A stretch of 53,435 bases of DNA from Lophium mytilinum (GCA_010093605.1 MU004183.1:2666001-2719435); one strand, 5' to 3'; positions 26,564 to 53,435 are shown, counted from the first letter of the stretch. Numbers and translations: made by a program. The notes: generated by a model from the letters alone, not told the origin.

Positions 26564-26599
26564 TTATAGGGGCTAGAGGGTTAGAGTTAGGTAGGGAGA

Positions 26600-27470
26600 A
26601 GCGAGTTTAATATAGAGAAAATTAACCTTTAAGAATTACGTGCAGCATAACCTTGCACCGCCGCATTTAACCACTACAACATGAAATAGAGTATGCATGC
26701 AAAGAATAATACTTAGAACGCAATATAATAGCGTTCTATTAACTTTAATTTAATTTACAAGCCGTAGTAGTGGCTTAAGGTAGGTATAGAGAGGCCGCAG
26801 GGTACGCAGGTATAGGATAGAAATTACTTAAAGGGTTTAGCGTAAGAACAGCCTCGCGCTTAAGAATTAGTATAACTACTACTACATATAACTACTATAA
26901 TGTAGCATAGAAGAAATATATAAAGAATTATACATAATACATAATGCAATAGTAATCTATTAACTTAGAATTAATATGCAGGCTATAGTAGTAGTAGCAG
27001 TTATATATAGAGGTAAGATTCTAAATAATAGAAGTTACTTAAAGAGTTTAGCGTAATACTAGCCTTATACTTAATAAAGACCTTAACTAGCGCTATATAG
27101 AACCACTATAATACAAGGTTAAAGATATTTATAAGGAAAATTACTTATTATATAATATAACAGCATTCTAGTAATTTAGAAATATTTTACAGGCTGTAGT
27201 TATAGCTCCAGGTGGGTGCAGAGGGTAAGAGAAGAGGGCGGCCAGCAGCGCAGAGTATAGCCCTATAATTAAGTAGCCTTCTACCGCTGCATATAATAAC
27301 TCCTAGATATTAAGATACTATAATAGAGCTATAATACTATATACAGTATATGCAATTAAATTTAAAGCATTATAAAAAAGGCGAAGTCCTAGTAGTAGGT
27401 GCCTATAGAGGGTAATAGATATAATAGAAAGGGTTTTACATTATAATAGCCTCGCCTTAGTATAGGTTGC
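26600..27470. repeat. Degenerate tandem array of ~200-220 bp units near the left end of X
   Basis: accgccgcatttaaccactac (26657), actactacatataactactat (26878), agcgctatatagaaccactat (27089); gaaattacttaaagggtttagcgtaa (26820) vs gaagttacttaaagagtttagcgtaa (27031). Confidence 0.7.
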
Positions 27471-27849
27471 TACTAGATAGTATTCTTATGTAATAGAAAT
27501 TTTAGCCGCATTAAATAAAATATATAAAGTAAAGGGCAGAATACAGTTTATATAACGTTTATAGATAAAGCAATTAATAGAGCTACTACAGGAAGCCTTT
27601 CTACTAGGGCCCTTCCCTAGCAACCTTAACTAAGTGGCCGTATCCGTAAGGGGTATTAAAACAGGTTAGGCAGAGTAAGCCCCACAACAAGAATATTAAT
27701 AAATTCTTATTTTTAACTAATTATACTCCCTAACCGCTTTCCGCTTCTTAGCTCTATATTCTAAACTATTATCCCCCTTACTACTACACCTAGTAGTTAG
27801 CATAGAACACCCCTAAAAGTACTAGAATAAAGAAGAGCGAAAAGCAGCT

Positions 27850-29760
27850 AAATTACGTTTAATAGTAGATTTAAACCGACGCAAGAGAGATAAAAAGAAG
27901 AGGGCTGCAGACTAAACAGCTGCAGTAAGAGAGGCTAGTAAGCCTACTTCTTCTTCTACCCTAGATCCGTTTCTAATTATCTTTAAAAACCCTAGAGGTC
28001 TTTCTAATATAAATATTAGGGCCCCTTATCCCACCCGCCCTGCGCCCACGCCCTTTTAATAACTAATTACACCTTAAAAGCCTTTAGAGGAAACTATTAT
28101 ACAACTTATAATTAGTATATCTTTTATAATCTTCTAGTATTTACGGTTAGGTTCTAATAAACTTAAGTAGAACCCGTCTTAATAGAAAAATTATTACCTT
28201 CTACCTCTACTTAATCTATATAATATACTTCTCCGCAGCAGTCTACTTATAGTAGTACCTGTTCTACTATTCCTCCTCTATATACCTAACCTACGCAACC
28301 TACGTAATATACTCCTTTATAGCGGTCTACCTATAGTAGTATCTATTCTACTACTCCTCCTCTATCTACTAAACCCACCTAATATTCTACTCTAGGGCGG
28401 GCTACTTATAGCAGTACTTATTCTCTCGCTTCTCTAACCTCTTAACCTATTTAACTAACATAACTTTCTTATACCTAGTAGTCTACTAGCAGTAGTATAC
28501 ACTCTAGTAAGTTAAAAGCGGCCTAATATATACCTGAAATTTAAAGTAATATAGAATTAATAGAAGCTGCAGAGCAAGATTAGAGTAATAGTAGTAAGCA
28601 TGCTATTATATAGACTATTAAGGAAGCAGTAGTTAAAGAAGAAGAAGAAGCGGCTAAAGAAAGCAAAGTAAATAAAGAAGTAGCCTAAGCAGATAAAGAA
28701 GTAGAAGAGGCAGTATTAGAGTTACTATTACCTACATCTTCCGCGTTGTCTCCTTATACACCTGCATTACCACCGCCTCTAGATACTAGAGAGGTATTGC
28801 CCTCTCTATTACTACCTTACAGCGTAGGGACACCTTAGTAAGCCGTAAATAATAATAATAGAGCTCTAGGCTAGGTTCTACCCGCTATACACTATCTCTA
28901 TAAAGCGTTTCTTAAACCCGCAGCTATACTACACATATATATAGGCGTATATACTATTCTTACCCTCTAGAATACCCTATAGATAGCTATAACACTATAT
29001 ATAAGTTTACGCGCTTAATAAACTATAGCGGCTCCTACTCCTATATAACTAGAACTAATAATACAACGCTAAATACTAGCCCTTATTACTATATTACTAC
29101 TCTACGTACTTGCGTAAATAACTAATAAAGAGATTATAGCGGAATTATTCTTAGCGCAATAAAATAAGGCTGTAGAAGTGCTCTCTAGAATAGACGCTAC
29201 AGAATAAATAGATAAGGAGAAAATGCTGGCTAATATAAGTTAGTTTATGCAACTAGCGCACAACAACGGTTGGGTTTAAATAGAGTAGTACGCTGCCTTA
29301 TTATCTCTCCGCCTAACGCCAGTAACCGAGGTCGTAGAAGAGGAATTTACCTAATTTAAGAACAAGGTAGAAGCAGGTGCAGATATAGATAAGGTATTAG
29401 ATAATAGAGTTAAAGAGAGTAGAGAAGGTATATATACGCAAGGATAGCAAGATACTATAGATAAATTACCGGGTTTACTTAATAAAGTTACGCTAGAGAA
29501 TTAAGGCAGTAGGGCAGATAATACAGCCTTAAATAGTAAAGGTAATAGCAAGATTACAAACAAAGTTATAGATAAGATAGACCCTAATAGGTAAGTATTA
29601 TAAGCTCTATAGTTTATATAAAGCTAATATATATAGGTATAATAATCTATTAGTAAATACTCTATATATAGTAAGTATAATCTAATTAGCATTAGAAGTC
29701 TAGTATACTTACTATATATCTTAACTCTTTCTATTTAGATAATATAGTAGCTAATATTAT
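27850..29760 (+). pseudogene. RIP-inactivated ORF of X, low-complexity/acidic protein of unknown function
   Basis: Readable frame with EAVVKEEEEAAKE near 28620, ~84-bp internal repeats at 28241/28325/28401, intron-like gtaagt...gctaat...tag at ~29590-29636. Boundaries approximate. Confidence 0.4.
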
Positions 29761-29789
29761 AATATAGCAAGTAACTATACAATAGTTCC

Positions 29790-32480: not shown

Positions 32481-32502
32481 ACTACTAAATAGCTACTACT
32501 AT

Positions 32503-32693
32503 TATTAGGGCTTAAGGTTAAAACGTTGGATTAAATAGTATTAATATTAACAAAAGATAAATACAAGAGAGAAAGAGGTTCCTAGAACGGACGTTGTAAT
32601 AACCTAAAGGGCGGAGCAACATTCGCCTATTCTATAGAGCCTTCATTACGTGACCTCTAGTTACGTATTATGCGCAATTATATAGCTATAACA
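32503..32693 (-). repeat. 3' LTR of gypsy B
   Basis: tattagggc...ctataaca; direct repeat of 40864-41054. Confidence 0.93.
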
Positions 32694-35600
32694 CGTCTCC
32701 CCCCTCTAAAGAAGCCCCCTAATTAAAGCCTTCGTAAGAGAGAGTTCTTTCTATGCTAGAGTATCTATAACCACTTAAATATCTATTAAATAAAGTGCCC
32801 AATCGTGTTACAACTTAAGTAAACAAAGGAAATAAATTAATTTTGTAGAGGATCGCTTATCCTTCCTATTTTTCATGCAGCCTTCCGCAGCCTTACTATT
32901 TAGTGTAGTGTCTAACCGACTCTAACAGTTTGCCAGTATTACCTCGCGCAGTGCCATCTTATTATTCATTTAAACTGGGGCCGGCTATAACAGGGCCGTA
33001 AGAAGCTATATAGCCTTTATAGCTGCTAGCCTACTACTAGGTACTTATAATAATCTGCGCTATTATATCGCATTTAATTATTGCGCACGTCCGCGGTTAG
33101 GCCTCCTTAATAAATTAATTTAACCGCCAGTCTAGTAATTAAGTTACGTAGCTTCCGCAGCGTTAGTTATACGGAGGTCCATAGCGGCGAGGATAGCAGC
33201 TAAGGTTAGTTTCTAGTCTAATAGTGGTATAAATAACGGGTAAGGTTCTAGCTTCTTAGAGTAGTAGTAGTAGAAGTCTACTATAAGATATAGATAACTA
33301 TCGGCATAATTATAGTTATTCTATTAGGGTTTATTATCCCATCCAATAAACTTAATTTTATATTGCAGCATGCCCCTTTTCCCTATAGCAGGGTTAAGTT
33401 ATCTTCTATTAAGACGGTAGTTAACAACCTCCTTAGCGTTACCTTTCTAATACGTTGGCGTTATCTATATAGGTAGAGGCTTAGAATTACGCTATCCTTT
33501 TATAGGAACTACGTTAGCCGGGTGGAGTAGCCAAGAATAGAAGATAGGGTGTAGGTTTTCTATACCCTTAGGTAGCTTAAGTTTATATGCGCTGCCGTTT
33601 TCATAGCTTTCTAGAACTTTAAAGGGGCCCAGCTTCTTAAAGTTAAGCTTCTTATTTAGGCGGTTCATTTTAATAAACTATCTATTAAGTATAACTTAAT
33701 CGCCTAGATAATATATATATGCTAGTCGTCGTCCTGCGTTAGTATACTCTTTTTACTTAGCTTAGGCCCACTTAATCTCTATACAGAGAAAGGCGCAAAG
33801 CTTATCTATCCTAGCAACAAATTTGTCTGCAAGCTTTATAAGACGAACTGTTAGCGCGTTTGCATTATCGGGCAGTTATGCAGCTAGTATAGTGCCTGCG
33901 CTAGGAATATAGCCCTTAGTAGCTATAAATAGCGCTACTCCTATAGAGGCGTTCTTTAATAAGTTAGCCTTAAATTTAGCAACAGCAAGGAAGTTACACT
34001 AGTTATCTTGCTAGTAGTTAATGTATGCCCTAAGGTATTACTTCAAGCCTATGTTAGCAACTTCTGTTTATCCATCTATCTTAGAATAGAACGCTGTAGA
34101 AAGCTTTAGTTTTATTCCAATGCATTTACATAGGTGGGACTAGAAGGTTAATATAAATTATAATCCGCGATTAGATATAATAGACTCTAGGTATTCTTTA
34201 GTGCGCTAGACCTATTCTAGAAAGGCTTATGCTACTTCTTTAGCCTCCGTTATTACCATTAGAATAAACTTGCGCATCTTAGAAAGTCTATTAATAACCA
34301 CTATAACGTATTAGTAGTCTTATCCAGCTTGTATACATTTAGGCAGTAGGCCAATAAAGTTAACCGTAAGGTTAGTCTAATATCGTTCAGGAATTAGCAG
34401 TAGTTTAAGAAAACCTTGCTTTACCTCTTATGCGTGCTTAATGCGATCACATAGCTAGCAGGCCTTAATATAACAGTCGACGTTAGAGGTTATTCGTGGC
34501 TAGAAATAGTACGTTGAGACACGGTCGTAAGTAGACGTAGTTCTACTATAACTAACTAGCGGAGGCTTATATAGGCTTTTAATAATAGCTAATTAGAGTT
34601 CCTCTTTTATAGAAATGTATAAGCGGTCTTTTTAAATAAAAATAAGGCCGTTATAAATTATACAGTCATGGAGTTTAAGCTTAACACTATAATTTTTAAC
34701 TATGTCAGTAGGGAGGCGGCGTAGCTTAGCTCCGATAGCGTCTTTAATAGCGTTGGCAACAGTGTTATTAGTAAGGGCCTCTCGTATACAATCCACAATG
34801 TCTTATTCTACGGCACCATTAGCAGGGTTATTCTATAACTCCCCCTGCCTACCTAGTAGCTCCTATAGTTTATTATTAAGGTTACTCTAAGACTCCCCTT
34901 AATTAAGTTCTATTTTACTAAGGTTATATATTATTGCTACAAGGGAGACTACGTTATAAGTCACGCCGTTAGTTATAATGTTAGCTAGTTTAATAGCGTA
35001 ATGCATTCCTAGTTTAAGATTATAGTCCTTTAAGATGGTTTATTACTAAATCTTATAGCGCTTGTTGTTTTCGTCCGGTATATTACCTGGGCGCCTAGTT
35101 AGCAGGTCAGCTTTACTATTATCCTTGCCTGGCCTGTATATAATCTAGAAGTTAAACTTAGAGAGAAATTTAGCCTATCTAGCCTATTATTAGTTAAGTT
35201 GCTTAGTCTCTATAAAGTATTATAGGGTCCAGTAATCTAAAAGGACTTTAATAGAATTACTATGCCCGTAGCCGGCAAGTTCTATGCGCCATTCTTTAAA
35301 GGCGCGGACGATTACTAGAAGTTCTTTATTATAGATTTAATAATTAAGTTAAGCTGCGCTCATTTAGTAAGACATAAACGCGATAGGGCGGAGGACTCCG
35401 TTAGCTTACATTTAAGATAGTATAGCGGCCGTAACAGTGTTAGATACATTACATTCCACCTACGTCTCTAGGTCTAGATTAAAATAAGCCATCTAAGAAG
35501 CGTTAACAAACGCTTGTTTTATTTATTTAAATAAAAAGTCTTTAGAGCTGCCTTCCTACTATAGAAAGGCAAACCACTTATAGACCTCAGCCCTAGTAAG

Positions 35601-38600
35601 TCTTATAAGGGGTCCTGCAATATTAGAATAGGCGACAATAAATCGCTAGTAGAAATTATAGAAGCCTAGGAAAGCTTATATATTACAGAGGTTCCGTAGT
35701 TATAGCTAGTTAACTACTGTTTTAACTTTAGCTGGATCTATTTTTAGGCCATTAATGCTAATAATAACGCCTAGATATTTAACTTCCTGTTTATAGAATT
35801 CACACTTAGTAATATTAAGGAAGAGGCCGGCCTTGCGGAGTCGCTGGAGAACCTTCTTAACGTGGCCTACGTGTTCCTCCAACGTCTTACTAAAGATAAG
35901 GATATTATTAAGATAGGCCGTGCAGAAATCATTAAGGTATTTAAGCAGAATATTATTAATAAAGGCCTAGAAGGTCGCTGGAGCGTTACACAGGCCAAAA
36001 GGCAAGACAGTGAATTCAAATAGGCTATATCTTGTAAGAAAAGCCGTATATTTCTTATCTCCTTCTCATATTCTAATGGCATTAAAAGCGGCTATAACGT
36101 CAAACTTCGTATAATACCTAGCGTGTTTTAATAGCGCAAGTGTGTCTTTTATAGCCGGCGGAACATTACAAGCTTTAATTGTAACAGCGTTAAGGCCTTA
36201 ATAGTCTACGTAAATGCAAAGGCCTCCTCCTAGTTTGCGGACAATAATAATAGGAGCGGCGTATTAACTATTACTTTTCCTAATATATCCTTTGCCATAC
36301 ATCTCGTTAATAAACGTTTTAACAACTAGCGTTTCGTCTCGTAAGAGCCTATAGACTTTTCAGGCTAGGGCCTTAGTTCCTAGCTTAATATTAATGTAGT
36401 GGTTAATATTAGTACCATCCTTTACTTTACGCCGGGGTAGAAGCTTATTAGCTTCCTTTAGGTCCTATATATTAAGAAAGCTATAGTATTCTATAGGTAC
36501 CAGTACTTTAAGTGCATCACAAGTTATTAGCTTGCGTTCCATTTTCTTAAAGAACTTTTGTTAGTTATCTTTTAACATTGCGTAGAGGCTAATAGCTGCA
36601 AGGTTATTAGTAAAGTTAGCTGGACCCATAACCTTGTTAGGTTTGTACGGGCGTCCATTAGCGTGCGCTTAGTCTTCCGCTTTTTTATTAGCGAGCGCTA
36701 GTTCAAAGTATTTAGGCCAGATGTAAATAGTGTTCTCTTCTAGTAACTATTGTAAATTATACAAGCACTCGTCGCTAGACACGGCGTTAATATCGAGCGC
36801 TTTAAAGGCCGCGAGCTAGGCGTCGAGTTTCTACTAAAATAGGCGTTTACCGGTGCGGGCTATAGGGTCCTTTAACTAAACGTAGACAGGTTTATAGTTA
36901 ACTAGGCATTAAGAACAGTAGTAGTCTAAATCTAGCTATATTATTTAGGTACTAAACTTTATATAAGCGTTGTGCATTATAAGCCAGCCCATGCTAAGAA
37001 TAATATTATAGCCCTTAAGGTTATAGATTAGAGCCTAGAACTTATTATAGTGGCCTTTAATCTACATAGTAACTTTAGCTGCCTTATTAATAACTAATAT
37101 AGAACTGTTTAGCAGCTTAACGTTGCATAGAGTGGCTTTACAGACGTTAAGCTTATACTATTTTATAAAGCTTATAGAAACGAATATAAAGCCGCCGCAT
37201 CTAGAGTCTATAAGAACAGTTAATTTAACCGTTCCGGTTAAAGTAATAATCTTGCAGTTAAAGTCCATTTGCTTGCTAGAAAGAGAAGTAAGTCTAATAG
37301 CGCATGCGGAGAGCTTAATATTAGGTGGTTTTAGAGAAGGTAGCTTAAGCTCTTAAATACGTGCAAGAACTTAAGCTAGCGTGTCTTCTAACTATCTCTA
37401 ACGACGACTTTCATTAGAGATTAAGCATTTTCCAAGTAGTCGGAATGGACGGCTTTATTATTGTCGTCTTAATCTTAGTCATCCTCGTATTTATACTTAT
37501 ATTAGTACTCCTAATCGCTACCGTAGTTAAACGCGTTAAGTTCTATACTATTAATGCCAGCAGCAGCAAGGCGCTTATCGCGCTAAGCCTCTAATATAGT
37601 CTTTCCAGCTATGGCGCATTTAGGGTTACTAGCTCGGTGGTTCTTCTTAAAGCAGCCGAAGTAACGTCCTTTCTTACTAAGACGCAGGCGGACGTGCGGT
37701 GGGACGCTCAGCAGCGGAACAGTAGTAGTCTTCTTAACTATAATGCAATTATTAGTCTTAGTAATAGACTACTTACGTTGGGCGCGGTTTAAATCTTAAC
37801 GGCTATCCTGCGTATGTGCGTTATTTAAGCGGCGTACTAAAATTTATGCTGCTAGAAGCTTATCCTTAAGTCGCTTTTTACGCTAAATACAATGTTAGTC
37901 TTTATATAGGATATTATCTTTTACCTAATACTATATAGGTAGGTTAAAGTTAATATAGGTAGATAGATCTATGCGCAGTATTTCCTTAAGATAGCGGTAA
38001 CAAGTTACAAGGCCGTTGTTAATCTTACTGTACTTTAGCCCGTTAAGAACAACGTCAAGACGTTATAGAAAGTCAGACGTCTTCTCGTTAGAACGCTATT
38101 TTATGCCCTAGCTATTAAGCTAATTAAGAAGGCAATTACAACGCACGGCATTACTCTCTTAGAATGTGGCGTCTAGGTCCTAGGTAAGTTTCTTAAGTAA
38201 ACGATACGGGTTAGTAGATATAAGGAGTCCTTAATCTTCTACAACTTTATATGCGCGCCCCTTATAATAACTAACAGCAAGCTGGATTTAAGTTATAGTA
38301 GTGGGGTAAGTCTACTAGTCTACTTAGACTAAGTAGATTAGGTAGTTCTTCTAGGCTGCGTATGCTATAGCTCCTAATTTAAAGTCCCACAGGTATGTAT
38401 ATTTAGGGCGAGGGCCCTATTATTATCTATATTAAGGATAGATAGGTCCGTATACCTATAGCTAAGTAAAGCTATCTAGTTAGCTTAGGTTTAGGTTATC
38501 TCTACCTCTACCTCCACCTCTACCTGTGGTGAAGTATTAGCCTAAAACGCAATTACATTAGAAATTATCTAGGTTTAGAGTGTATAGTCCTGTTAGTAGG

Positions 38601-40863: not shown

Positions 40864-41054
40864 TATTAGGGCTCAAGGTTGGAACATTAGATTAAATAGT
40901 ATTAATATTAACAAAAGATAAATATAAGAGAGAAAGAGGTTCCTAGGACGGACATTATAATAATCTAAAGGGCGGAGTAACGTTTGCCCGTTCCGCAGAG
41001 CCTCCATTACATAACCTCTAGTTACGTGTTATGCGCAATTATATGGCCATAACA
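40864..41054 (-). repeat. 5' LTR of gypsy B
   Basis: tattagggc...ccataaca; direct repeat of 32503-32693. Confidence 0.93.
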
Positions 41055-42584
41055 ACTATAAGGTAGCCTAACTAAGCTAATATATTAAAGAACGGGCTTA
41101 AGGGGGGGCAGTTAACCTTAGTATAGACGTAGTTGCAAAGAAAGTATAGAATATAACCTAGGGAAGCCCAGGAAAGTTAAAGATAATAATAATAGAGGAT
41201 AATATTATAGGCCCTAGGGGTTAAGTTAATCTAAAATATATCTAGCTTAGATTTAAGCACTATACACTAAATAGCCCAAGGGCTTATTTAGGTAGGATTC
41301 TAATAATTAAAGAATTCCGGAATTATTTAGCAATATAGAAGAAGCAAGAGGGGGATATAAGTAGTTAGTTATTAGATAAAGAGTATAAGTATAAAGAGAG
41401 TTTAGGTAACTATAGCTTAGAAATAGAGGACTTAGAGGACTCAGGGCAAGAGGCCTAGAAGAATAAGGCTTAAGTAGAAGAGTTTTAAGGAGCATATAGA
41501 TTTAAGTATTAATAGGTAGACTAGTAGGGGCAGCGTTATAAAGAAGAATTATTAATAAGGAAGATAGTAAAGTAATTAGTATAAGATATAAAGGGCGTTA
41601 GTAGAAAGGCTTTTAGCTAGGCTCTTATATAGTACGCAAATACTTATCTAGTAGGTGCGTAGCGGTAATATATATAAGAAGAGAGGCAATAATAGGCGTG
41701 CTTAATATAAGTAGTAAAGGGCCCTAGTAGAAAGGCTTTCTAGCAAGACCCTTATACTATAGGCAAATAGTTATATAATAACGCGCAATGTTCTATTAAC
41801 CTATCTTAGCATAGTGCTATATTACTAGAACTAGGTAATATATAGTGTAGTATTGCAGATTAACCGTAAACGCTTACATATTAGTAAAATTAAGTAAAAC
41901 GCCGATATATTTACACCTATAATATTTTAACCTTATATAATACACAGCTATTATATTAACCTTAAGAGTTAACTTAAGCAGTTTACTGTTAAAGGCTTAG
42001 CGTCTTAGCGGCCAGCGGCTATTAGCCCGGCCGCCTATAAACTTATCCGCTACCTAGTAGCTTTAACTTTCTTACTTCTATACTAATCTCTCCTTCTATA
42101 CTACTGCACCCCTATTACTTCTACTTATCTAGCTACCTGCAGAACGGTTGCGCGCTAGTTTCTTACTTGCTAGACAATAGTTAGCAGCTTTCTAGCTACG
42201 TTAGAGCCGCAATTAGCTTATTTTAGGTGTGTTTTTAGCTAGCGGTTAAGCCTTTTAGTAAGTTTACTATCTAGTAGATAAAATCAAGTTACGTTATAGC
42301 TAATTCTGCTAATAGGTTTATTCCATCGCAATTTCTCTAAGAGTAGAGTAAGGTAAGCGTATTATAAGGATTATTATAGGAAGGCTTTCTACTAGAGCCC
42401 TTTACTAGTCTTAGTAGATTAGTCTACCTTAATTTTAAAGATGCGGCGGCAGGAAATATTAAGAAAATAATAATACTAAAAATACCCGGCATAGTATAAA
42501 GGGTCTTAGTAGAAAGCCTTTCTACTAGGGCCCTTTACCTGCCTCTATTCTTCTATTATTTAAAATAAGCTAATACATTAATAG

Positions 42585-45500
42585 GCTAGCTATAAATACC
42601 TTAAGTAATAGGGACCCTAGTAAAGTAGTAGTAAAGGTTGCATCCCTATATATATTACCTGCAACTAACCTAGTAGATAGCTATAAGAAATAATCTACTT
42701 CTTCTAAAGTACTAGAAGATCTAAATTCTACCTTCCTACTAGTTACTAAATTAGGGGTTAATACCTATAGCGATTTAAAGCGCAATTAGCCGGCCACTAT
42801 AATAGATCTAGAGACGCTTACATTAGTAAATAGCAAAGTAGTTTATCTAGATAGTAATAACTATAGTAATAACTCTAATGTCCCTAAGAACTCTAATAAA
42901 AAGTAAGAGAAGATTTAAGCGCTAGTTACTAGCAGTAGGAGAGATAAAGAGTTAGAGAAGTTATAGGCCTTAGTAAACACGCTGTATACTAGTAGAATAA
43001 AGTTAGCTAAGCTTTATAGTTAAATAAAAGCAGAACTTAAAGTAATTCTAGCTAAGCCTAATTTCTAAGCAATTTAGAATAAGTATAAGGATAGGTATTT
43101 AGACCTAAAGCGCGCTATATATAGTTAGGATTAAGAGGCCAGTTTTACTACTATCCTAAACGCTTTTAAGACTAGCGAGTTATATAATCTACAGCAATAT
43201 ACTACTCCTTAGCCTAAGATAGATAACTATAAACCCGTAGATTAGGCAGCTTAATTTATTAGTTAATACTTTAATTACTACTAGAAGCGGTTTAGTAGGT
43301 TTTTATATAACCGCGCTAATATTACTAATAATAAAGCGCTTAGAATCTTCTTTAAATTAAAGAAAAATATAGAATTTAAGAGTAGCCCGTTTTAAGCCAG
43401 TAGAACCGCCTATACTAAGAACTAAATTAAGATATAGAATGTTCTTTAAAAAACAAAGCTTAGTCTAGCACCGGCACCTAAGACCCCGGCCAAAACCATT
43501 ACTTATAGCAGTAAGAATATTAACAGGAAGCCTTTCTATTAAGGCCCTTCTAGGCCTCCCTATTAGCAGTCGCCCTCTTATTTTACTAAGGAGGAACTCG
43601 CGGCCATTAATATAGAGGTTAACGTAGACAACCCTATCTAGGGGTTATCTAAAGAGGAAATTGCTGCAAACCTAGTTAATAAGGAGAAAGGCAATATTAA
43701 TATTACTAGCGCTAAGTACATTACCGGCACTATAAAATAGGAGCTTAAGTTAGTAATTACGCATGCTAAGCACACTAGAGTAATAATTAACCGGAACTTG
43801 TTAAAGTTTCAATATAACGCATATTAGGTAATTAGATAGATAGCAGGAGATTTTATATATACCGTTAAATAGCACCTAAATATGCGCGCTGCAGATCTAA
43901 ATAAGGATAAGTACGCTAATCTAGACGGTATTAAACATGCCTAAAATATAAAGGCTAATATAAGGGCTACTACTATTAATGTAAAGGATATTATCCCCTT
44001 TACTATACTAACCGCGGCAGATCTTACAACGTAGAGTATACTCCGCCTTCTAATAACTAATAAAGCCTATTAGCTAGATAACCTTAAAGAAGCAATAAAG
44101 GCCCTACATATTTATAACTATTAGGAACCCCGCCTTATTATAATAAATAGCAATATTTACTTAAGGTAGTAGTAGATTACCGGGGCTTACTATATATACT
44201 ATATTATATAGAAAGGCTTTCTTAGTAGGGCTTTAATTATAGATAAGGTTAGTATTAGAAAGACATTTTTAATAGCTACCCTTATTAGATATATAAGTAA
44301 TTTCTCTTTAAAGGGTGTTAATAGAAAGCCTTTCTACTACCCCCCTAATAGTTTCTCTTAGCATCTACTAATTTAATTATAGCTTATTGCTAAGCGCCAG
44401 CGCAAAGTTGCAGATAAGAAAGACCCCGGGCCGGCAAAGCCCTTTCTTTTTCTTATGCCTCCCGTTTTAGTACACTAAATAGCGAATAAACTTGCAAAGT
44501 TTAGTTCTAAACTTAAGCTCTATATCTATTTATTAAAGGGCTAAGTTACTTTCTATAGCACTACGTTTCTATATAACACCTTAACTAGGGACTATCCCTT
44601 ATTTAATACTAAAAACGAGGCGAATACTAAGAGTATTATAATCGCTAGCTATTAGGTAATAGCCGGTTAGTATAGTCCCCAGCCCGCATTAAAGTAGTAT
44701 AGCGATAATAATCTTACTAAGCTAAAGAACTAGGTTAAATATTACCTAAGCTCTACCTAGCCCGGTCTTTTAAGTAGCTATTTTAACGTCTAATTTATAG
44801 ATAAGTACTAGCTTATTAAAAGCAACTAAGTAAACCTCTACCTAACCGCGTTATAGCTTTACTTAGACTTTACTATACTCTATAGTAGGACCCCGCTATA
44901 TATAGGCATTACTAATATACCTACTTATATATCTTTTATAGAACTAAGAGATAAGCATCTATAATTCCGCACGTACCGCTTAAAACCCGGTAAAGCTAAG
45001 TTTATTCCAGGTACTAATAATCCGTTTAAGCTTTCTAATAACTATTTAGGTATAATTTTCTAGTATACACGCAAGGCTTTTAAAAATTTTATTCTACCTT
45101 TATTTAACCCGTAAGTTATTACATAAAGGGCCCTAGCAGAAAGGCTTCTAGCCAGGGCCCTTATCTCTCCTCTTATTTACTTTAATTTTCTAACATTTCT
45201 CTAGGATTATATAGGGGCTTTATTTACGCTTAATTTTTAGTAAGTGCATAATTGCTTACTTATACCCTTCTACATGCCTAAATAATTCTACTAATCCTGC
45301 TACCCGAATTAGAGGATTACTTCCGCGGTTAGTTACGCGAGTAATTAAGCTATAGCCTATAAAACTAGGCCATATTATCTATACTAATAAATCGCTAAGC
45401 TACCTTAAGTTATTAATAGTTCCTACTAAGAACTGCGTAGGCTAGCGCACCTATACATTTAACGCATGCTCCGTGCATGCTCTTAACCTTATAAGTACTG

Positions 45501-47970
45501 CGCTATTTTTAGTCTACTCTAAGCGCGCTATAATAGCATATCTGCAAGAGGAGGTCTTAAATTTAGAGGGCAACAAGATTAAGAACAGCCCGAAAATTAT
45601 TCCTCTTAAGAATAATGGCGGTTACTAGTTACAGGAAATAGACATTTTGCGAGGCATAATAAAGTAAATTGCCCGGAATAAGAATGTCTAAACTAACTCT
45701 AATTAGAAAGACTTTAAAGTAAAGTCCGCATTCTTTTATTATATTATCGCCCTTTTTATCTATAATGCCCCTAAAGTAGCTGCACTACTATACTATTTAG
45801 CTAACAACGTTATTAAGCGTATAGAGAAGGTTATTATCTAGACTAACTACCTAGATAAGTAAATAATTCTCGCTAAGATTATTAACTATTACAAAATAGA
45901 TGCTTATATATTAGCCTCCAATCTCTCTACTACTAACCGGGACAACCTTATCTTAGTATTTAACAACCCTAACTCTAAAGTAAAGATCCTTATTACTAGT
46001 TACTAGGCTAATAGAGCTAGGCTTAATCTATAGTCTACTTACTATAATATATATCTTTTTAACCCTACAGGCTCTATTTAGATTAAGGAGCAGGCGATAG
46101 CGCGTTTATATAGAATTAGCTAGAAGTTTACTATTATAGTAACCGCGTTCTTTATCTAGAACACATTTAATGCCTTTACTCTCTCGCGCCAGGTATAGAT
46201 AGCGCTTCCTGGTCTTGCTACTGCGTTAAACACTAACTAGATTAAGGTAGAGGGGACCTCTAAGAAAAAGCTAACCCTAGATAGCTAGTATGCGTAGGTA
46301 ACCTATAATAATAAGAGTATCGCACCCCGCCTTATTACAGGTAAAATAGATATTTTAAATATGCTAGTGGAATTATATATTAAGCGCTTTAACTTCCTAT
46401 AAGATATTCTTATATTTCTAATAACTCTTATATAAGGTAATATAACTTTTTAGTCTAGTAGGTTTAGCAATAAGTTCTAAAAAGAACAAGCGTACGAATT
46501 TACTAAATTAGAATTAGAAGAAGAGTAGAAGAAGGGTGCAAGTAGAGCGCCTAAGAAACCGCGTGTTAATAAGCCAGGTTTAAGGCTTAAGCGTTGTCCT
46601 GCAAGCAGTAAGTTCGCCCTTATAGGTTCTAGCAGGAAGGCTTTCTACTAGAGCCCTACTTACCTCTTTATAATTTGCTAATCTGTATTTTATAGTAAAA
46701 GCCACCCTAAAGCTAAAGCTAAAAACGCTAGAGTAATAAAATAGTAAAGCTTTAAAGTAGAAGCGCAAAGCTAGTACTACACTAGCGGCTGCCGTTAAGA
46801 AGTGTAAGCCTAACCCTAAGTCTACTATTATAGTTAAAGACTTAGATTCTACTAAATCTAATATGCCTACCCCTATAAAGAGCGCCACTAGAAAGGCTTA
46901 TGCCCCTTTTATCTATTAATATAGGCCAGAGCATAACCCTTTACATTAAGTACCCGCTATTTTTAGTAATATAAACGGCGACAACTCTTTTAGTAGGCTA
47001 AATAGTAATAACTCTAAAGGTAAAAAGTATAAGAATAATACTTTATTCCTTATAAAGTATATAGATAAGAATTTATCCTAGGGCCTTTTTAGAAAGCCTT
47101 TCTACTAGGGCCCTTTAGTATCGCCTATTATATTACTTAAGTGCTAACTATTATAGCAGCTCCTACTTCCGCCCGTTAACCCACTTTAACTCTACCTTCT
47201 AGCCCTCTTAGCACCTTTAATAGACGCCTTATTAGGACCCCTTCTATAGACCCCGTCCCGTCGCCTAATATATAGAAGAAGAGGTAGCGCAAAATATCTA
47301 CTATCTCCTTACAGGATTCTATAGATAATCTAGTTTTTTATTTACTACTAAAAGCTAACATTAATATAGATAATAAGCAGAATAAGAAGAATATTAAAAC
47401 CCCCGACGTTAATATAGAGAACGTCCTATCTAAGACTAATAAGTAAAATAGGGGGTATCTTAATAATTACCTGGATTTTACTACTACGCTATCTAAAGTT
47501 GCCTTTAAGTGTAACAGCAACTATAGTAGTAACTTAGACAACCCGCCAGAATTTATAGAAGGGGCCTTGCAGCCAACCCTAAAGACTATATTCTCTAGCA
47601 ATACTAATAAGGGTTAGAAGCACTAAGACGTAAAAAAGAAGCCCACTATAAAGAAGAATAAAGCGGCTAAGAAAGACTCTATATCTAAATCCCTTATATA
47701 TTATCTATATAAGTATATAATAGAGAAAGAGATTACTAAGTAGCGCCCTTAGCGCGAAAGGAAGGCTACTAAGAAGAAAGCTACCGCGCAGAAGTCTGCA
47801 AACTCTACTAGACCGAAAATAGACCTACGCAGGCGGAAGAATAATCCTAATATTAGCTAACCGCCCGCGGCATTAGGTGCAAATACTAACCCTAATAGTA
47901 AAGAGAATAGCAGTAAATTAAAGAGAACTAGCATAGCGCTAGAGAAGTCTAATAGTAAGGTATAACTAGT
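42585..47970 (+). pseudogene. RIP-inactivated SNF2-family helicase/ATPase gene of X, with introns
   Basis: Reverted motifs in consistent frames: LRWWQITG (44161), motif I GALIVDEVGIGKT (~44227), motif II FVDECQLIKS (44800), motif III SGTP (44884), motif V GAGLNLQ (~46013), motif VI EQAIARLxRIGQ (~46090). Intron 45111-45204 links the frames correctly. Gene ends approximate. Confidence 0.8.
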
Positions 47971-50452
47971 AGAGTCTTTATAAGAAGGCTTTCTATAGGG
48001 GCCCTAGCCCTACTTTTTAGATTTAATTTAGCATCTCTTAATATCTTTTTCTTTTTCTTTCTAATAGTTCTAATTAGGACTACTTTCCTTACTATTAGTT
48101 TGCACCTACTTACTTAGTACTACTAACTTTTTACTATTCTAATTTCTTGCTTGCGTTCTATTCCCTACCCTCTAATAGTTAGCACTACTCTATAGTAGTA
48201 GTACACTTTATACCCTTAAAATCTCCTAGTTTATATTTAGCCTCTAGATAGCGGCTTACTTAACTATAGAATATAGCGTAATATTTACTACTATAACTAT
48301 ACCTTACGTATCTTATATATAATATAATATTTATTTTATTTATCTATATTATAGGGGGCGGTCTTATCCGCCGTAGTTTATATAGTTAGAGAGGGTAATT
48401 ACATTCTAATGCTGCTCTATTGTATCTACACTATTAGCATGTGCTCCCTATCTTTTTTATAGTAAAGAATCTACTATTATATACCCTATAATTTAACCCT
48501 CTTTGCTAATATTAATTACACGGCTAGGCTAAGTCCTCTCTATAGACCCTATCTATTAATACGCTGTATATAACTTTATTCTATCTATAGTTTTCTAAAG
48601 CGTATATTATTGCATAATACCTAAACTAACTAGAAGGAGGGTTATTTACATATATTGTTGTTAAGTCTTTAGCGTACTAGGCGGCGGAAGGCAATTTAGG
48701 TGTCGCAGTTATACTTTCTAGTTTATCGGCGATATATTTAAACCTACTTATTATTAGTAAGGATAGTAATTCTTAAGGGGTTACAGTCTTACCGTTTATC
48801 GCTTTTAATATAACTTTCCTTCTTCTTATAGTTATAAATAGTCTCTATATTATAAATAGAACTACTCTTTTATTCTAGTATTTTCCTTTACTTCTATTCT
48901 TATAGCCGTCTTAATAAGCGCTTTAGCCGTATAAGCTTCCTCCTTGCAACTAAATCTAGAGTGGTATTTACAACCTCGCGCCTAGACAGAGTATTAGGCG
49001 TAGTAAGGAAAGAAGCTAACCGCTCTATTAGAATATATATATTAGGTAGACGTAGATATATCTACCCCTACTAAACATTATCCTCGGCGTTTAGAGTTGC
49101 TATGCTGCTGCACGTTAACCTTAGTATACCGGGCTATATTTTATATACTTTAGCCTAGTTTAGGGTTGCAGCCGTCTCTATATTAGGTTAAGCCGCTTCT
49201 TATCTTATAAATATCCGCCGGAACGCTCTAGAAAGGACGTATATAGTATACTAATTAAGACTTATATATAGTATTATGCGTGGGCTGCTACTATACTATA
49301 AGGGGTAGGTAGTAGTTAGAAAAAGGTTTAATACGCTAGTTTCTATTAATCTTAGTATATTACGTGCTAACCTCTTATATTATACCTATACTTATAATTA
49401 ACCTTTAGAGGTTAACTCTATATACTATATATAAATAGCAGCTCTAAGAGTTTTATTTTATTACTATACTATATATATATTTTACCTTAGGCGGGACTAG
49501 TAGGTCCCTATAACGTATAGTTTACGTAACTATACCCTGCGTCGCTTCAGCGCCCGCCCGATTTACTCTTCCTCTCTTTTCTTACTCCTTTAGCTTGTTC
49601 CTCTCTACACTATAGCTATAGGTAAACTAACAGCTAGAACTAGCATAGAAGAGACTCTTAATTATATTTAAAGCACTTTAGAGAGATAGATTAATAGTAC
49701 ATAAAGTTTTAAAGCTGGTAGGCTGTAGGAACACCTATATAACTAACTTAGAAGAGTAGCACGCTAAGAATAGCACCGCCACAACAGGCACACTAATAGG
49801 CTCGGGTACTATTACTTAGAACCCTCTTCTTAACCCTAATATACCTAGCAATACCGCAGATCTCGCCGCATAAAACGCCAGAAAGAAGTCCTTATTATTT
49901 ATTTCTAAAATAACTTCTAAGCTAGCTAATATAGACTAACTCTATACAACTAAACTGCTTACCGCGGAGGATACTACTAACCCTACCTACATCTATGCCT
50001 AGAGAGAAGCACTTTTTATAACTATCTAGAATTAAAACGGAGGTTCCCTCTTTAGTAATAGCCTAGGCACGCCTACTAATACTACTTTTAATATGCAGCC
50101 TACTATAACTAAGTCTTAAACTCTCTATAACTATACTAACCCCCTATCCTAAGCTACTAGAAATAGCGCCCTACCTTTTAAGTCTAATATTAATATTAAG
50201 CCTAAACTAGCCAATAAAGTTAATATAAAGATTAAGCCTAGTATTAAGATTAAGCCCGGCCTTATAAGTAGCCCGGATACTACAAGTTTTTTAAGAATAA
50301 TTCTAAGAATAAGGAGCTTCTACGCTTACAGATTAATATAGAAGAGAAGAAGGCAAGGGCTATATAAATAAGGTTTAAGGCTATAGCTAGAGAGTAGAAG
50401 CAGTAGGGCCTAATCTACTCCTAAATCTAAACCTTAAATAGAAGTAGCAGCG

Positions 50453-51691
50453 CCCTAACCTATTTCTATCTCTACGCGCTTATTAGTAAATACCTAACTC
50501 TTTATCTAGCGCTACCAGGCCCTTACTATCTTCTAACCTATCTTCTCCTTTAATAGTAACGCGTCTCTACCCTTCTAGAACTGCACCCTAGCCCTCCACG
50601 CTACCTACGCGGAAATTATCTAATAGGCTTTACTCTTTTACTTTATCTTACTCTTATTTTCTTCTTTAATAGCTTTATCTCTACTCTTCTACTATTAGTC
50701 TTATTTTCTTCTACTATAGTAGAGCCTCTAGACCTAACTCCTAGTAACGGCACTAGTTTACCCTTTACTACTATAGTAAAACCTAAAGATTTATCTTCCA
50801 TTACTACTACTACCGCGTTACTAACTTGCAAGCCCTAAAATTGCGGACATTATAGAAAGAAAGCCACTCTAAGGTGCAGTCGCTGCGCCAGCGTTATCTA
50901 CTGCAATGCGGATTATTAAAAGGCTAACTAGAAATTATCTAATGCGCCGCCTTCTTATATAAAGGTTATTATACTATAATAAGACTTCTATACTTTAGCT
51001 TAAATTTACTAATAGATAGCAAAGAGCGTAAAGTTTAGCGGATTATTTAAGGGGTAGAAATTAAAACGGGTTCCGGCTCTATTATATAACTATAAGCTGC
51101 GATATACTTTACCTCTTATAAACTTAGCCCGCTACACATAAATATAGAGTCTCTCCTACCTAAGTGCTAAAGAATAACTTCTAGTAGAGTAGCTACAGCT
51201 ACTCTAGCTTATATAGATTAAACTAGCACTCTACCTTAGCCTTCTTAGGCTAGCCTTTAACCTTATATATATACTAGCGTAGGCAGTAATAATTATTCTT
51301 ATTCTTCTTTTATACTAAGCTTAATTACTACACCGCTTTCTAGCTTTAAGAAGAGAAAGATGGAGGTTACAACTCCCCTTAGTAGTTAGAACTCTACCTA
51401 CGCCCCGCCATTAATAGATTAGACACGCGGAGGCTCTATTCTAGGTGCCCTAAGCGTGCTATAAAATCTACTTAGCATTAATAAGTTTAAAAAGTAGCAT
51501 AAAGCCGCCGTTACCGCCGCTAGAGCCTAAGCCTAATCTACTCCCTAACCTATCCCTATCTCTATACGCTTATTAGCAAACACCCAGCTCTTTATCTAGC
51601 GCTGCCAGGCCCTCGCTATTTCCTAGCCTATCTTCTTATTTAATAGTGACGCCTTTCTACCCTTCTAAAACTACACTCTAACCCTCTACGC
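50453..51691. repeat. ~149-bp direct repeat pair (50453-50600 and 51543-51691)
   Basis: ccctaacctat...ctctttatctagcgct(a/g)ccaggccct...ccct(c/t)(c/t)acgc present twice. Confidence 0.85.
50842..50965 (+). pseudogene. MYND-type zinc finger relic within a RIP-inactivated gene of X (~49600-51900)
   Basis: Reads CGH(C)(G)KKATLRCSRCASVIYCNAD(C)(Q)KA(D)(W)K...(H); parentheses mark RIP-reverted codons. Confidence 0.7.
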
Positions 51692-52788
51692 CGCCGGCTC
51701 CCCCTACTCCTTTATAACTACTAGCCCCTGCACCTTAAAGAAAGAAGCTAAAGAAGCCGCCTCTACTCTTAGCCTTACCCTCCTCTCCTCTCTTAAAGCC
51801 TTAGGTACAGTCTCTACCCTAAGTAAAAGTAAAAAATACACTCTAACTCTAACTTCTACTACTTCTACCCCTAAAGAACTCTAAGAAAACTTTACTAGTA
51901 TTCTTATAGAATTCTACTAAGCCTCTAAAATCCCTATTCTAACCTTTGCTAAGTTTAAAACCAGCACCTACTTCTCTACTAAGCTATTGCTAGCCTTATA
52001 CTACTAGTTAGACACCCCCTTTAGCGGCCGCGCTATACTCTACCTATTAAAGAAAGCGGCTTATATAGCTATAGTAAGAAAGGCGGTACTCTAGCTATAT
52101 ATAGAGATAGCTACCCGCTATATATAAGCCCGCGTCTATAAAGAAGTAGTAGAAGACAGTAAAAGGTTCTAAGAACACCGCGGTGTAGCTGCTAGGTAGT
52201 GCGGCGGCGCGGGTGCTAGCGCTAGCAAGCGAGCTAGGGCTACCGTAGCTAGAGTATTAGTAGGCGGCGCTAAGTGCGCTAGCGCCGGGGCTATCTATAG
52301 TAAGTAGTTTATTCCCAGGGAGTAGAGTAGGTAGGGAGGATAGAGTAGTAGTAACAGTAAGATATATAGTTAGAAAGAAGGCGGCAAGAAAGAAGTATGC
52401 GCGGTTAATAGTAATAGAGTTAGAAGAAGTATTAGAGAGGAGGAAGGGGGTGTTAGAAAAGGTATTAAAGAAGGGAAAGAGGAAGGTAGAGATAAGAAAG
52501 AAGGATAAGAACTATTATTCTTATTAGGAGTATAGAGAGACATATAATAGGAACTTATTTATACTTACTTAATTTAGGTTATAGTAGGGGAAGCATATTA
52601 GAAGTATAGTAAATAGAAAGTATAATTACTTCCGCAGTAATATAAGGGTTACTATAGAAAGGCTTCCTATAAAAGCTCTATAAAAAATATTAGTATAATA
52701 TATATATATAAAAAAGATATATAAATTTATAATTAAAAGAATCTCTATAGAAAGCCTTCTAGTAAGAACACTATACTATAATTTAAAA

Positions 52789-53235: not shown

Positions 53236-53251
53236 AGGGTTAGGGTTAGGG

Positions 53252-53292
<41 letters not shown>

Positions 53293-53294
53293 GG

Positions 53295-53335
<41 letters not shown>

Positions 53336-53337
53336 GG

Positions 53338-53378
<41 letters not shown>

Positions 53379-53435
53379 GGTTAGGGTTAGGGTTAGGGTT
53401 AGGGTTAGGGTTAGGGTTAGGGTTAGGGTTAGGGT
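53236..53435 (+). repeat. Telomere, (TTAGGG)n with three TTTAGGG variants
   Basis: Uninterrupted G-rich repeats to the window end, oriented as a right chromosome end. Confidence 0.98.

What the first reader, a model, noticed from the sequence alone, without database searches (positions are those of the whole stretch)
27579..52772. A 35-bp palindrome dispersed 13 times through X, best preserved in introns and overprinted on exons
Seen: consensus AGGGCCCTAGYAGRAAG-S-CTTTCTACTAGGGCCCT (17-bp arms, 1-nt centre; possibly AGGGCCCTGGCAGAAAG... before RIP). Copies start at 27579, 41592, 41718, 42367, 42500, 43514, ~44199, 44312, 45127, 46623, 47080, 47971, 52645 and 52738 (the 44199 copy is core only), plus 20856 in copy 1, in both orientations. 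Five lie in apparent introns (42353-42417, ~42494-42584, 45111-45204, 46608-46695, 47057-47156). Three degenerate ones are in the SNF2 reading frame, one running into motif I. I saw no full copy in the gypsy elements or host genes. Inference: a selected cis-signal, such as a binding site for a dimeric element protein, a packaging/recombination site or an RNA hairpin, or else a tiny intron-associated parasite.
Basis: partly seen in the sequence, partly recalled or inferred. Interest (0 to 1): 0.88.

Follow-up and report, generated by a model that had tools for sequence, protein, structure and literature searches.

The report
Hairpin-bearing introns of a subtelomeric helicase gene
The repeated 35-base palindrome is real, and it forms the hairpin core of a small family of look-alike introns that is confined to one mutation-riddled helicase gene next to a fungal chromosome end and seems to be kept in live relatives of that gene.

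Summary
The palindrome is real. Thirteen windows lie within 12 of 34 mismatches of the consensus, against 0.02 in shuffles. None is in the host genes or the gypsy insert.

It is not a free-standing motif. It sits 14-16 nt downstream of a GTAAG-type 5' splice site in six units (exact GTAAG in 4 of 15 copies, P about 1e-6), and a branch point and AG follow. That makes intron-like units of 86-113 nt. Removing three of them restores the reading frame of a + strand SNF2 helicase gene. Removing two makes the protein align continuously with fungal SNF2 relatives. So the "exonic" copy at 44312 is probably intronic. The copy at 44199 is a core-only match inside an exon.

The locus is heavily RIP-mutated, present in several copies in the genome and 0.5 kb from TTAGGG telomere repeats. 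Genome contigs showed no context for the palindrome outside this element. There are no target-site duplications.

Metagenomic relatives read through the same intron positions into peptides that back-translate to the same palindrome.

Best reading: a gene-private, introner-like intron family whose hairpin is under selection. What the hairpin does is inferred, not shown.

The parts
42441..47954 (+). RIP-inactivated SNF2-family helicase gene (ATG 42441 is provisional; the end is approximate). Motif I remnant (SIRKT) at 44251-44265; helicase C-terminal domain in exon 45205-46607.
   Evidence: The frame-2 translation 42586-45108 (stops read as X) hits 39 proteins at E<=1e-3. P0001 (E 2e-32) and P0003 align over the N-terminal part. 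Pfam Helicase_C scores E 0.0011, below the curated cut-off. Alignments to fungal SNF2 proteins reach E 1e-30.
45111..45204 (+). Intron unit (94 nt): GTAAGT, 16 nt, palindrome 45127-45161, CTAAC, TAG. Phase 2.
   Evidence: It links the frame with codon starts = 1 mod 3 to the frame = 2 mod 3 exactly. After removal, 14 of 40 HSPs span the junction by at least 15 residues on each side, and P0039 is continuous there. P0004's ORF stops at this point. P0002 reads CC|G TAT GT here, in the same phase. The hairpin fold has z -3.29.
46608..46695 (+). Intron unit (88 nt): GTAAGT, 15 nt, palindrome 46623-46657, GCTAAT, TAG. Phase 1.
   Evidence: Restores the frame from 2 mod 3 to 0 mod 3. Fold z -2.04.
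47065..47156 (+). Intron unit (92 nt): 5' site mutated to ATAAGA in this copy, 15 nt, palindrome 47080-47114, GCTAAC, TAG. Phase 1.
   Evidence: Restores the frame from 0 mod 3 to 2 mod 3 only if the intron starts at 47065. Loose-end consensus from genome contigs reads AGGTAAGAATTTATCCT immediately before the palindrome.
44297..44382 (+). Probable intron unit (86 nt): GTAATT, 15 nt, palindrome 44312-44346, CTACTAAT, TAG. It lies between helicase motifs I and Ia. The frame is off by one base in this dead copy.
   Evidence: With the unit replaced by X, 8 of 38 HSPs span motif I to Ia, against 4 of 37 with read-through. Bits for P0012 are 72.0 against 62.8. The ORFs of P0003 and P0004 break at this place, and P0001's tail starts here.
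42494..42584 (+). Probable first intron (91 nt): GTATAA only 6 nt before palindrome 42500-42534 (the best-kept copy, 2 mismatches), GCTAAT, TAG.
   Evidence: It links ATG 42441 (frame 0 mod 3) to frame 1 mod 3. Fold -27.6 kcal/mol, z -4.32. There is no support from relatives.
43511..43569 (+). Undecided unit: GTAAGA, then a palindrome (43514-43548) with a degenerate 5' arm, then CAG. It lies in a poorly conserved linker and is read in frame.
   Evidence: Replacing 43510-43569 with X changes the alignment scores little: P0001 125 to 127 bits, P0003 90.5 to 87.8 bits. P0001 residues 330-342 are compatible with the palindrome (29 of 39) within 5 residues of the aligned place.
44204..44229 (+). 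Core-only match (TAGAAAGGCTTTCT plus a partial 3' arm) inside the exon, ending about 10 nt before the ADE..GKT motif I block.
   Evidence: It aligns without a gap to P0001 (MRAAQLLRGML) and P0003 (KIEKRLMRGVL). The core is listed.
42353..42417 (+). Candidate unit upstream of the provisional ATG: GTAAGC, 14 nt, palindrome 42367-42401, TAG.
   Evidence: Spacing and splice-like signals only. Fold not better than shuffles, z +0.53.
47955..48067 (+). Candidate unit at or after the end of the ORF: GTAAGG, 16 nt, palindrome 47971-48005, CTAATAG.
   Evidence: Spacing and signals. A 9-nt border repeat, TCTAATAGT, has P about 0.018 on its own. No coding frame is evident downstream.
41521..41769 (-). Two tandem units in minus sense, with a 126-nt period between palindrome starts and 4 nt between the units. 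Palindromes at 41592-41626 and 41718-41752. One unit starts GTATTT 17 nt before the palindrome, and both end CTACTAG.
   Evidence: Flanks read and aligned. Self-BLAST pairs 41714-41760 with 42538-42491 at 93.75%.
27579..27613 (+). Copy in the left part of X. Its paralogue is at 20856-20890, in the duplicated fragment 19840-21611.
   Evidence: The pair differs at 4 of 35 positions, which matches the 88.5% identity of the surrounding duplication.
52645..52772 (+). Two degenerate copies (52645-52679 and 52738-52772) in AT-rich tandem repeats next to the telomere.
   Evidence: 52645 has 12 of 34 mismatches. 52738 does not pass the threshold; only its core is seen.
32503..41054 (.). LTR retrotransposon inserted into X (LTRs 32503-32693 and 40864-41054). 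It carries no palindrome.
   Evidence: Self-BLAST at 87% over 191 nt. No half-site there.
53236..53435 (+). Telomere repeats (TTAGGG)n at the end of the window.
   Evidence: period 6, 32.8 copies.

Best explanation
The 35-nt palindrome (about 41 nt with its TAA/TTA flanks) is the stem-loop core of a small family of paralogous spliceosomal introns. The family belongs to one gene lineage: an SNF2-type helicase gene carried by a multi-copy subtelomeric repeat that RIP has since killed.

Unit layout (shown from the sequence). 5' splice site GTAAG, then 14-16 nt, then the hairpin with 17-20-nt arms, then 36-50 nt (62 nt in the 47955 unit) with a pyrimidine run and a CTAAY branch point, then YAG. 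Every interruption of the gene that I could detect carries the hairpin.

Origin (inferred). One hairpin-bearing intron was copied within the gene and beside it, in the manner of introner-like or same-gene intron duplication, without target-site duplications.

Function (inferred). In live relatives the stem is kept by selection, so it probably acts in the pre-mRNA. The most likely role is to bring the 5' splice site and branch point together, or to act as a binding platform that gates splicing and therefore expression of the helicase.

In this window all copies are mutational wrecks with no present function.
For: 1. Real and element-specific. 13 copies against 0.02 expected, and none in the host genes or the gypsy insert. 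Contigs of two whole-genome DNA runs laid on 42440-42600 showed loose ends at the palindrome borders that match, by eye, only the window's own 41718 and 47080 contexts.

2. The unit is an intron. GTAAG lies 14-16 nt upstream in 4 of 15 copies (P 9.8e-7). A fifth is GTAAGA in a sister copy and a sixth is GTAATT. Three units restore the reading frame exactly. Removing 45111-45204 gives continuous alignment to 14 SNF2 relatives. Replacing 44296-44382 with X doubles the alignments that span the site.

3. Polarity. In the sense orientation the 5' arm has 67 mismatches and the 3' arm 24. The 5' arm is the worse one in 11 of 13 copies, including the two minus-sense units.

4. Hairpins fold better than shuffles in the three best-kept units, with z -4.3, -3.3 and -2.0 (3 of 8 folded).

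5. Conservation in relatives. P0002 reads through the same phase-2 intron site (CC|GTATGT) into KGGLQEAFLQPPL. That peptide is the top score (32 of 39) among 54,570 back-translation placements in 39 proteins. P0001's tail after motif I scores 29, within the top 11. The P0002 peptide fits a perfect palindrome with 20-nt arms: 6 forced pairs, 14 possible, 0 impossible. It has a forced G-C where the window has C-G. P0002 and P0004 are only 39% identical, so this is deep conservation.

6. No consistent target-site duplications.
Against: - No RNA evidence. No RNA run holding the locus was available, so splicing is inferred from sequence alone.
- The evidence from relatives rests on back-translated peptides, because their DNA could not be fetched. 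Palindrome compatibility of a peptide is not rare by itself: arms of 17-28 nt occur by chance in the control proteins.
- Within the window the stem shows no covariation beyond shuffles: 80.4% paired against 79.1%, with 81 of 500 shuffles at least as high. G-U pairs (23) do not outnumber A-C pairs (25).
- Outside the palindrome the units share little sequence.
- The 44297 unit leaves the frame off by one.
- Two units stand in tandem in the opposite orientation outside the ORF, with 4 nt between them. Functional introns would not look like that.
- The outer 8-mer AGGGCCCT is itself self-complementary, which an RNA stem does not need.
- The centre alternates between G and C, which points to DNA-level flipping.
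Confidence: 0.55

Rival explanations
1. DNA-level cis-signal. The palindrome is a binding site for a dimeric protein of the element, or a cruciform or recombination signal. It is scattered along the element in both orientations, and it lies in introns only because exons cannot hold it.
For: - Each outer 8-mer AGGGCCCT is self-complementary, as sites for dimers are.
- Copies occur in both orientations and outside the ORF (41592, 41718, 27579, 52645).
- The G/C alternation at the centre fits flipping of a DNA hairpin or cruciform.
- The motif is restricted to the element.
Against: - A DNA site has no reason to sit 14-16 nt from a 5' splice site.
- It has no reason to have one arm kept better according to the direction of transcription.
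- In P0002 the outer stem is not GGGCCC but remains complementary, which argues for pairing rather than for a sequence read by a protein.
- No copy lies in the right-hand 4.6 kb of X, 48006-52644.
Confidence: 0.2
2. A tiny foldback or MITE-like transposon that inserted repeatedly into this element. It survived where it landed in introns or in tolerant linkers.
For: - Perfect inverted-repeat architecture with TA-containing flanks, TAA...TTA.
- Both orientations, a tandem pair, and a possible in-frame exonic copy at 43514.
- One unit has a 9-nt border repeat.
Against: - Border repeats across the 8 units (9, 7, 6, 6, 5, 5, 5, 4 nt) match the null: at least 5 nt in 62% of random GT..AG pairs and at least 7 nt in 11%.
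- Independent insertions would not land at a constant distance from 5' splice sites.
- No copy was seen in non-X contexts in the genome contigs, in the gypsy insert or in the host genes.
- No exact match in JGI metagenome contigs.
- Presence at orthologous intron sites in distant relatives implies age, not recent insertion.
Confidence: 0.12
3. The intronic hairpins are precursors of small RNAs (mirtron-like or Dicer substrates). These would silence the element or limit its expression, so the hairpin would be kept for processing and not for splicing.
For: - Stems of 18-20 bp in several introns of one repeated gene.
- Conservation of pairing in a relative.
Against: - Nothing tested here bears on small RNAs.
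- From recall, the stem (about 41 nt in all) is shorter than typical Dicer hairpin substrates.
- No Rfam family matches: 2 hits, both below their gathering scores and both bacterial sRNA models.
Confidence: 0.08

Closest known systems
Introner-like elements (ILEs) of Dothideomycete fungi, and the 'same gene duplication' class of near-identical introns (Collemare et al. 2013, PMC3609843, part 1 of 3 of the text read; Collemare et al. 2015, PMC4457414, abstract and passages)
   Same: Spliceosomal introns with canonical signals that share sequence with one another, are longer than ordinary fungal introns and have a stable predicted secondary structure. Several can sit in one gene.
   Different: ILEs occur in tens to hundreds of copies in unrelated genes and are reported to degenerate quickly. 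Here the family is confined to one gene or element, only the hairpin is shared, and the hairpin appears to be conserved between distant relatives. GGGCCC is not found in the main text of PMC4457414. Its supplements were not examined.
Internally symmetrical 'sister' (stw)introns of Hypoxylaceae (Fekete et al. 2021, PMC8469720; abstract and section 3.5 read)
   Same: Canonical introns of about 93 nt with internal symmetry around a central palindrome. They are flanked by no tandem duplications, have no Rfam match, and carry the true intron on one strand only.
   Different: There the inverted repeats are 45-55 nt and reach the intron ends, the central palindrome is TTTCTAGAAA, and the introns have spread to many unrelated genes. 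Here the arms are 17-20 nt, start 14-16 nt inside the intron, and the family stays within one gene lineage.
Transposon-type introners with inverted repeats and target-site duplications (algae, dinoflagellates, some fungi; PMC12130899 and PMC7789003 seen as search listings only)
   Same: Short inverted-repeat elements that supply or recruit splice sites.
   Different: The defining target-site duplications were tested here and not found. No genome-wide spread was seen.
Autoregulatory stem-loops in introns of yeast ribosomal-protein genes
   Same: A conserved hairpin inside a gene's own intron that controls its splicing. This is a model for how the hairpin here might work.
   Different: Those are single-copy structures bound by the gene's own product. 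Nothing of that kind was tested here.

Membership tests
Introner-like elements (ILE) | Spliceosomal introns with canonical 5' site, branch point and 3' AG | tested here: met
   Sequence level only. Three units restore the frame. Two behave as insertions against relatives. GT..CTAAY..AG signals are. There is no RNA evidence.
Introner-like elements (ILE) | Many near-identical copies in unrelated genes of the genome | tested here: not met
   No copy lies in host genes or the gypsy insert. Contigs of two DNA runs show only X's own contexts at the palindrome borders. The whole genome was not available for a full scan.
Introner-like elements (ILE) | Stable predicted secondary structure compared with shuffles or ordinary introns | tested here: inconclusive
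   3 of 8 units have z <= -2 (-4.32, -3.29, -2.04). The other five are not better than shuffles, and their stems carry many mismatches.
Introner-like elements (ILE) | Longer than the regular introns of the same genome | not tested
   Most units are 86-94 nt, but no set of host introns was measured here.
MITE / foldback DNA transposon | Target-site duplications of constant length flanking each copy | tested here: not met
   The longest border repeats are 9, 7, 6, 6, 5, 5, 5 and 4 nt. The null gives at least 5 nt in 62% and at least 7 nt in 11% of 3000 random GT..AG pairs.
MITE / foldback DNA transposon | Dispersed copies outside the parent element | tested here: not met
   No exact match in JGI metagenome contigs.
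Hypoxylaceae sister (stw)introns | Terminal inverted repeats of 45-55 nt that reach the intron ends | tested here: not met
   The arms are 17-20 nt and begin 14-16 nt from the 5' site. Symmetry extends only 3-4 nt beyond the 35-mer.
Hypoxylaceae sister (stw)introns | No flanking tandem duplications | tested here: met
SNF2-family helicase (the gene that holds the introns) | Walker A (motif I) and helicase C-terminal domain in SNF2 order, with similarity to SNF2 proteins | tested here: met
   Alignments to fungal SNF2 proteins reach E 2.6e-30. Pfam Helicase_C scores E 0.0011, below the curated cut-off. The relatives P0002 and P0004 hit SNF2-rel_dom below the cut-off. JGI names P0004 'SNF2 family DNA or RNA helicase'.

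The most novel reading that the evidence does not exclude
A family of spliceosomal introns that is private to one selfish or subtelomeric helicase gene lineage. Its hairpin would be kept across species by compensatory change. It would serve either as an element-specific switch that gates splicing and so expression of the helicase, or as the structure by which these introns copy themselves into new positions of their own gene, a homing-like behaviour for a spliceosomal intron.
Probability: 0.22. Interest if true: 0.8.

Novelty: new variant of a known kind. Interest (0 to 1): 0.6.

Why it matters
Repeated, structured introns (introners, ILEs, sister introns) are the main lead on how new spliceosomal introns arise. 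The known cases are genome-wide families that decay fast. A family that stays within one gene lineage, supplies every detectable intron of that gene, and keeps its hairpin between relatives only about 39% identical would be different. It would show that such a hairpin can be functional rather than a by-product of proliferation. It would also give a compact system for testing what the stem does: one gene and an 18-20-bp stem. Separately, the host gene belongs to a sparsely sampled fungal SNF2 lineage that sits beside a telomere, where the helicases described so far in fungi are, from recall, of the RecQ type.

Tried and rejected
- Whole-genome scan: no genome is held for this window.
- Earlier findings: three look-ups returned nothing.
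- Pfam on whole 4.1-kaa six-frame readings with X at stops: 0 families.
- DNA of relatives: the search for related loci on the A1 alignment in metagenome contigs matched 593 pattern stretches, none confirmed. The exact pattern GGGCCCTRGYAGRAAGSCTTYCT gave 0 matches in metagenome contigs. The contigs that carry P0001-P0004 are therefore not in that collection.
- Word-based protein searches: the A2 alignment returned only P0001. P0002 returned itself and P0007, which ends before the intron site.
- RNA evidence: no RNA holder was listed. The one run guessed to be RNA (X3) laid nothing on 42440-42600. This says nothing about expression.
- Target-site duplications: not above the null.
- Stem covariation among the window's copies: not above shuffles. 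A sense-strand G-U excess is absent, 23 against 25.
- Palindrome compatibility of peptides as a test on its own: rejected as too permissive, since control proteins reach arms of 17-28 nt. It was replaced by scoring against the specific consensus.
- Rfam: two hits below gathering scores to bacterial sRNA models, treated as chance.
- Terminal repeats of X: only weak AT-rich matches between the left part and the telomeric end.
- Extra core-only sites (21354/28077, 24280, 25986, 32725): their flanks are not palindromic.
- Literature: searches for a subtelomeric SNF2 element with RIP (passages) and for introner/hairpin/palindromic/fungal found no description of this motif. bioRxiv supplements are closed and PMC supplements were not examined, so ILE consensus sequences could not be compared.


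Full report
SETTING

The window has three parts.
- Bases 1-14000 are ordinary fungal DNA: GC 0.52, TpA/ApT 0.68. The 995-codon ORF at 6996-9983 looks like an ascomycete haem peroxidase.
- Bases 14001-53235 are AT-rich, with RIP indices far outside the host's. TpA/ApT is 1.7-2.0, and (CpA+TpG)/(ApC+GpT) is 0.07-0.56 against 1.3 in the host. The usual thresholds for these indices are recalled, not taken from a call.
- The window ends in 33 TTAGGG repeats (53236-53435), preceded by 60-nt tandem repeats.

An LTR element with LTRs at 32503-32693 and 40864-41054 splits it. A 1.8-kb piece of it (26563-28334) recurs at 19840-21611 at 88% identity.

THE OBSERVATION

The half-site occurs 15 times against 0.8 expected. 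The full 35-mer occurs 13 times within 12 of 34 mismatches, against 0.02 in shuffles. No copy lies in the host genes or the gypsy insert. Ten of the 13 lie in 41.6-48.0 kb. The palindrome extends by TAA/TTA to arms of about 20 nt.

THE GENE

Read with X at stops, 42586-45108 in one frame finds 39 proteins at E<=1e-3 among 1.84 billion representatives.
- Two JGI metagenome fragments, P0001 and P0003, align over the N-terminal 450 residues up to helicase motif I.
- P0002, P0004 and many fungal SNF2 proteins align downstream.
- Named relatives come from Aspergillus, Plenodomus, Tothia and Coleophoma.
- The next exon carries a weak Helicase_C match.

Stop-codon density shows the coding frame changing at exactly three places. 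Each change is bridged precisely by a GT...AG unit that contains a palindrome: 45111-45204, 46608-46695 and 47065-47156. For the third unit the window reads AT at the 5' site. A less mutated copy elsewhere in the genome reads GTAAGA (loose-end consensus).

Removing 45111-45204 yields a protein that 14 of 40 HSPs span, with P0039 continuous across the junction. Replacing 44296-44382 with X doubles the alignments that span motif I to Ia (8 against 4) and raises their scores. This "exonic" copy is therefore most likely an intron, although the frame is off by one base in this dead copy. A fifth unit, 42494-42584, links a candidate ATG to the main frame.

For 43511-43569 I cannot decide. The core-only match at 44199 is exonic and aligns to relatives without a gap.

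THE UNIT IS LARGER THAN THE PALINDROME

In six units a GTAAG-type donor lies 14-16 nt before the palindrome. Exact GTAAG in that 3-nt window occurs in 4 of 15 copies, P about 1e-6.

The unit is also polar. In the sense defined by the splice signals, the 5' arm carries 67 mismatches and the 3' arm 24. The 5' arm is the worse one in 11 of 13 copies, with one reversed and one tied. The same holds for the two copies at 41592 and 41718. These are tandem units with a 126-nt period in the opposite orientation, upstream of the ORF. For those two I partly chose the orientation by the same signals. RIP context cannot explain the polarity, because the two arms are reverse complements of each other. I leave it unexplained.

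Outside the hairpin the units share little beyond AT-rich and pyrimidine-rich sequence.

WHAT IT IS NOT

- Border repeats are no longer than in random GT..AG pairs, so there is no target-site duplication.
- Contigs of two whole-genome DNA runs from one sample, possibly the source of the assembly, were laid on 42440-42600. They show many RIP-type variants of the whole stretch (43 and 24 pieces), so X is multi-copy. The loose ends at the palindrome's borders match, by eye, only the window's own 41718 and 47080 contexts. Summed depth over the palindrome is at most about 2-3 times that of its flanks. No context outside X appeared.
- Neither an exact-pattern scan nor a protein-guided scan of JGI metagenome contigs found anything.
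- Rfam has no match.

CONSERVATION IN RELATIVES (INDIRECT)

The metagenomic relatives are ORF calls that run into introns.
- P0004 stops exactly where the window has CC|GTAAGT.
- P0002 continues as P-Y-V, which fits CC|G TAT GT, and 22 nt later reads KGGLQEAFLQPPL.
- When every placement in the 39 retrieved proteins is scored against the window's consensus with best-case codons, this peptide is the single best of 54,570, at 32 of 39. Two placements in P0001's tail after motif I, and two at P0001 residues 329-343 (near the place aligned with 43514), are among the 11 best.
- The P0002 peptide is compatible with a perfect palindrome with 20-nt arms: 6 pairs forced, 14 possible, none impossible. 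One forced pair is G-C where the window has C-G, and one is T-A where the window has R-Y.
- P0003's tail (..RRALGAFGEGFTKGPFSY) looks like the 3' arm with a different inner part. This is my reading and was not scored.

P0002 and P0004 share only 39% identity, and P0001 and P0003 only 31%. An unconstrained intron sequence should not survive that divergence.

Caveats: the DNA was not seen, and palindrome compatibility of peptides alone is common.

WITHIN-WINDOW TESTS OF AN RNA STEM ARE NEUTRAL

- 80.4% of cells pair, against 79.1% in shuffles.
- G-U and A-C cells are equal, 23 against 25. That is expected for copies that decayed after inactivation.
- Three of eight units still fold better than shuffles.

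VERDICT

The palindrome is the hairpin core of a gene-private family of related introns. It stands closest to introner-like elements and to the symmetrical sister introns of Hypoxylaceae. It differs from both in its confinement to one gene lineage and in its apparent conservation.

The mechanism is inferred: a pre-mRNA stem that assists or gates splicing, with the family built by intron duplication without target-site duplications. A DNA-level site, a tiny foldback transposon and a small-RNA precursor remain as rivals.

Noticed in passing
window 53236-53435 and 52833-53215: The window ends in about 33 TTAGGG telomere repeats, preceded by 59-60-nt tandem repeats. Element X is therefore the last thing on the chromosome arm.
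   Followed up: partly
window 44204-44229: A 14-nt exact match to the palindrome core plus part of the 3' arm lies inside the exon just before helicase motif I, and it aligns to relatives without a gap. It could be chance, the source of the palindrome, or gene conversion. Unexplained.
   Followed up: partly
all palindrome copies: The centre base alternates between G (5 of 13 copies) and C (8 of 13) among copies of the same sense. A G/C swap is not a RIP change. It is what flipping of a hairpin loop or cruciform would produce.
   Followed up: no
all palindrome copies: The 5' arm is much more decayed than the 3' arm (67 against 24 mismatches), although the two arms are reverse complements and offer RIP the same contexts. 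Unexplained.
   Followed up: partly
window 50839-50913 (+): Weak MYND zinc-finger remnant (Pfam E 6.8e-4, below the cut-off) in the right-hand part of X, which carries no palindrome.
   Followed up: partly
window 28602-29621 (+): A stretch with few stops that reads like a further degraded gene of X. It has no Pfam match. The 27579 palindrome lies about 1 kb upstream of it.
   Followed up: partly
window 16357-16949: A 296-nt unit repeated twice at 95% identity in the most AT-rich block (GC about 0.2).
   Followed up: no
window 6996-9983 (-): Host ORF of 995 codons whose nearest ESM Atlas clusters are animal-haem-peroxidase-domain proteins of Ascomycota.
   Followed up: partly
proteins P0016 / P0040 / P0041: In Plenodomus lingam JN3 a related SNF2 gene is annotated as two proteins (859 and 732 aa) with consecutive accession numbers, while a 1601-aa Logan protein falls in the same 90% cluster. 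The split may mark a misread intron between the two helicase lobes.
   Followed up: no
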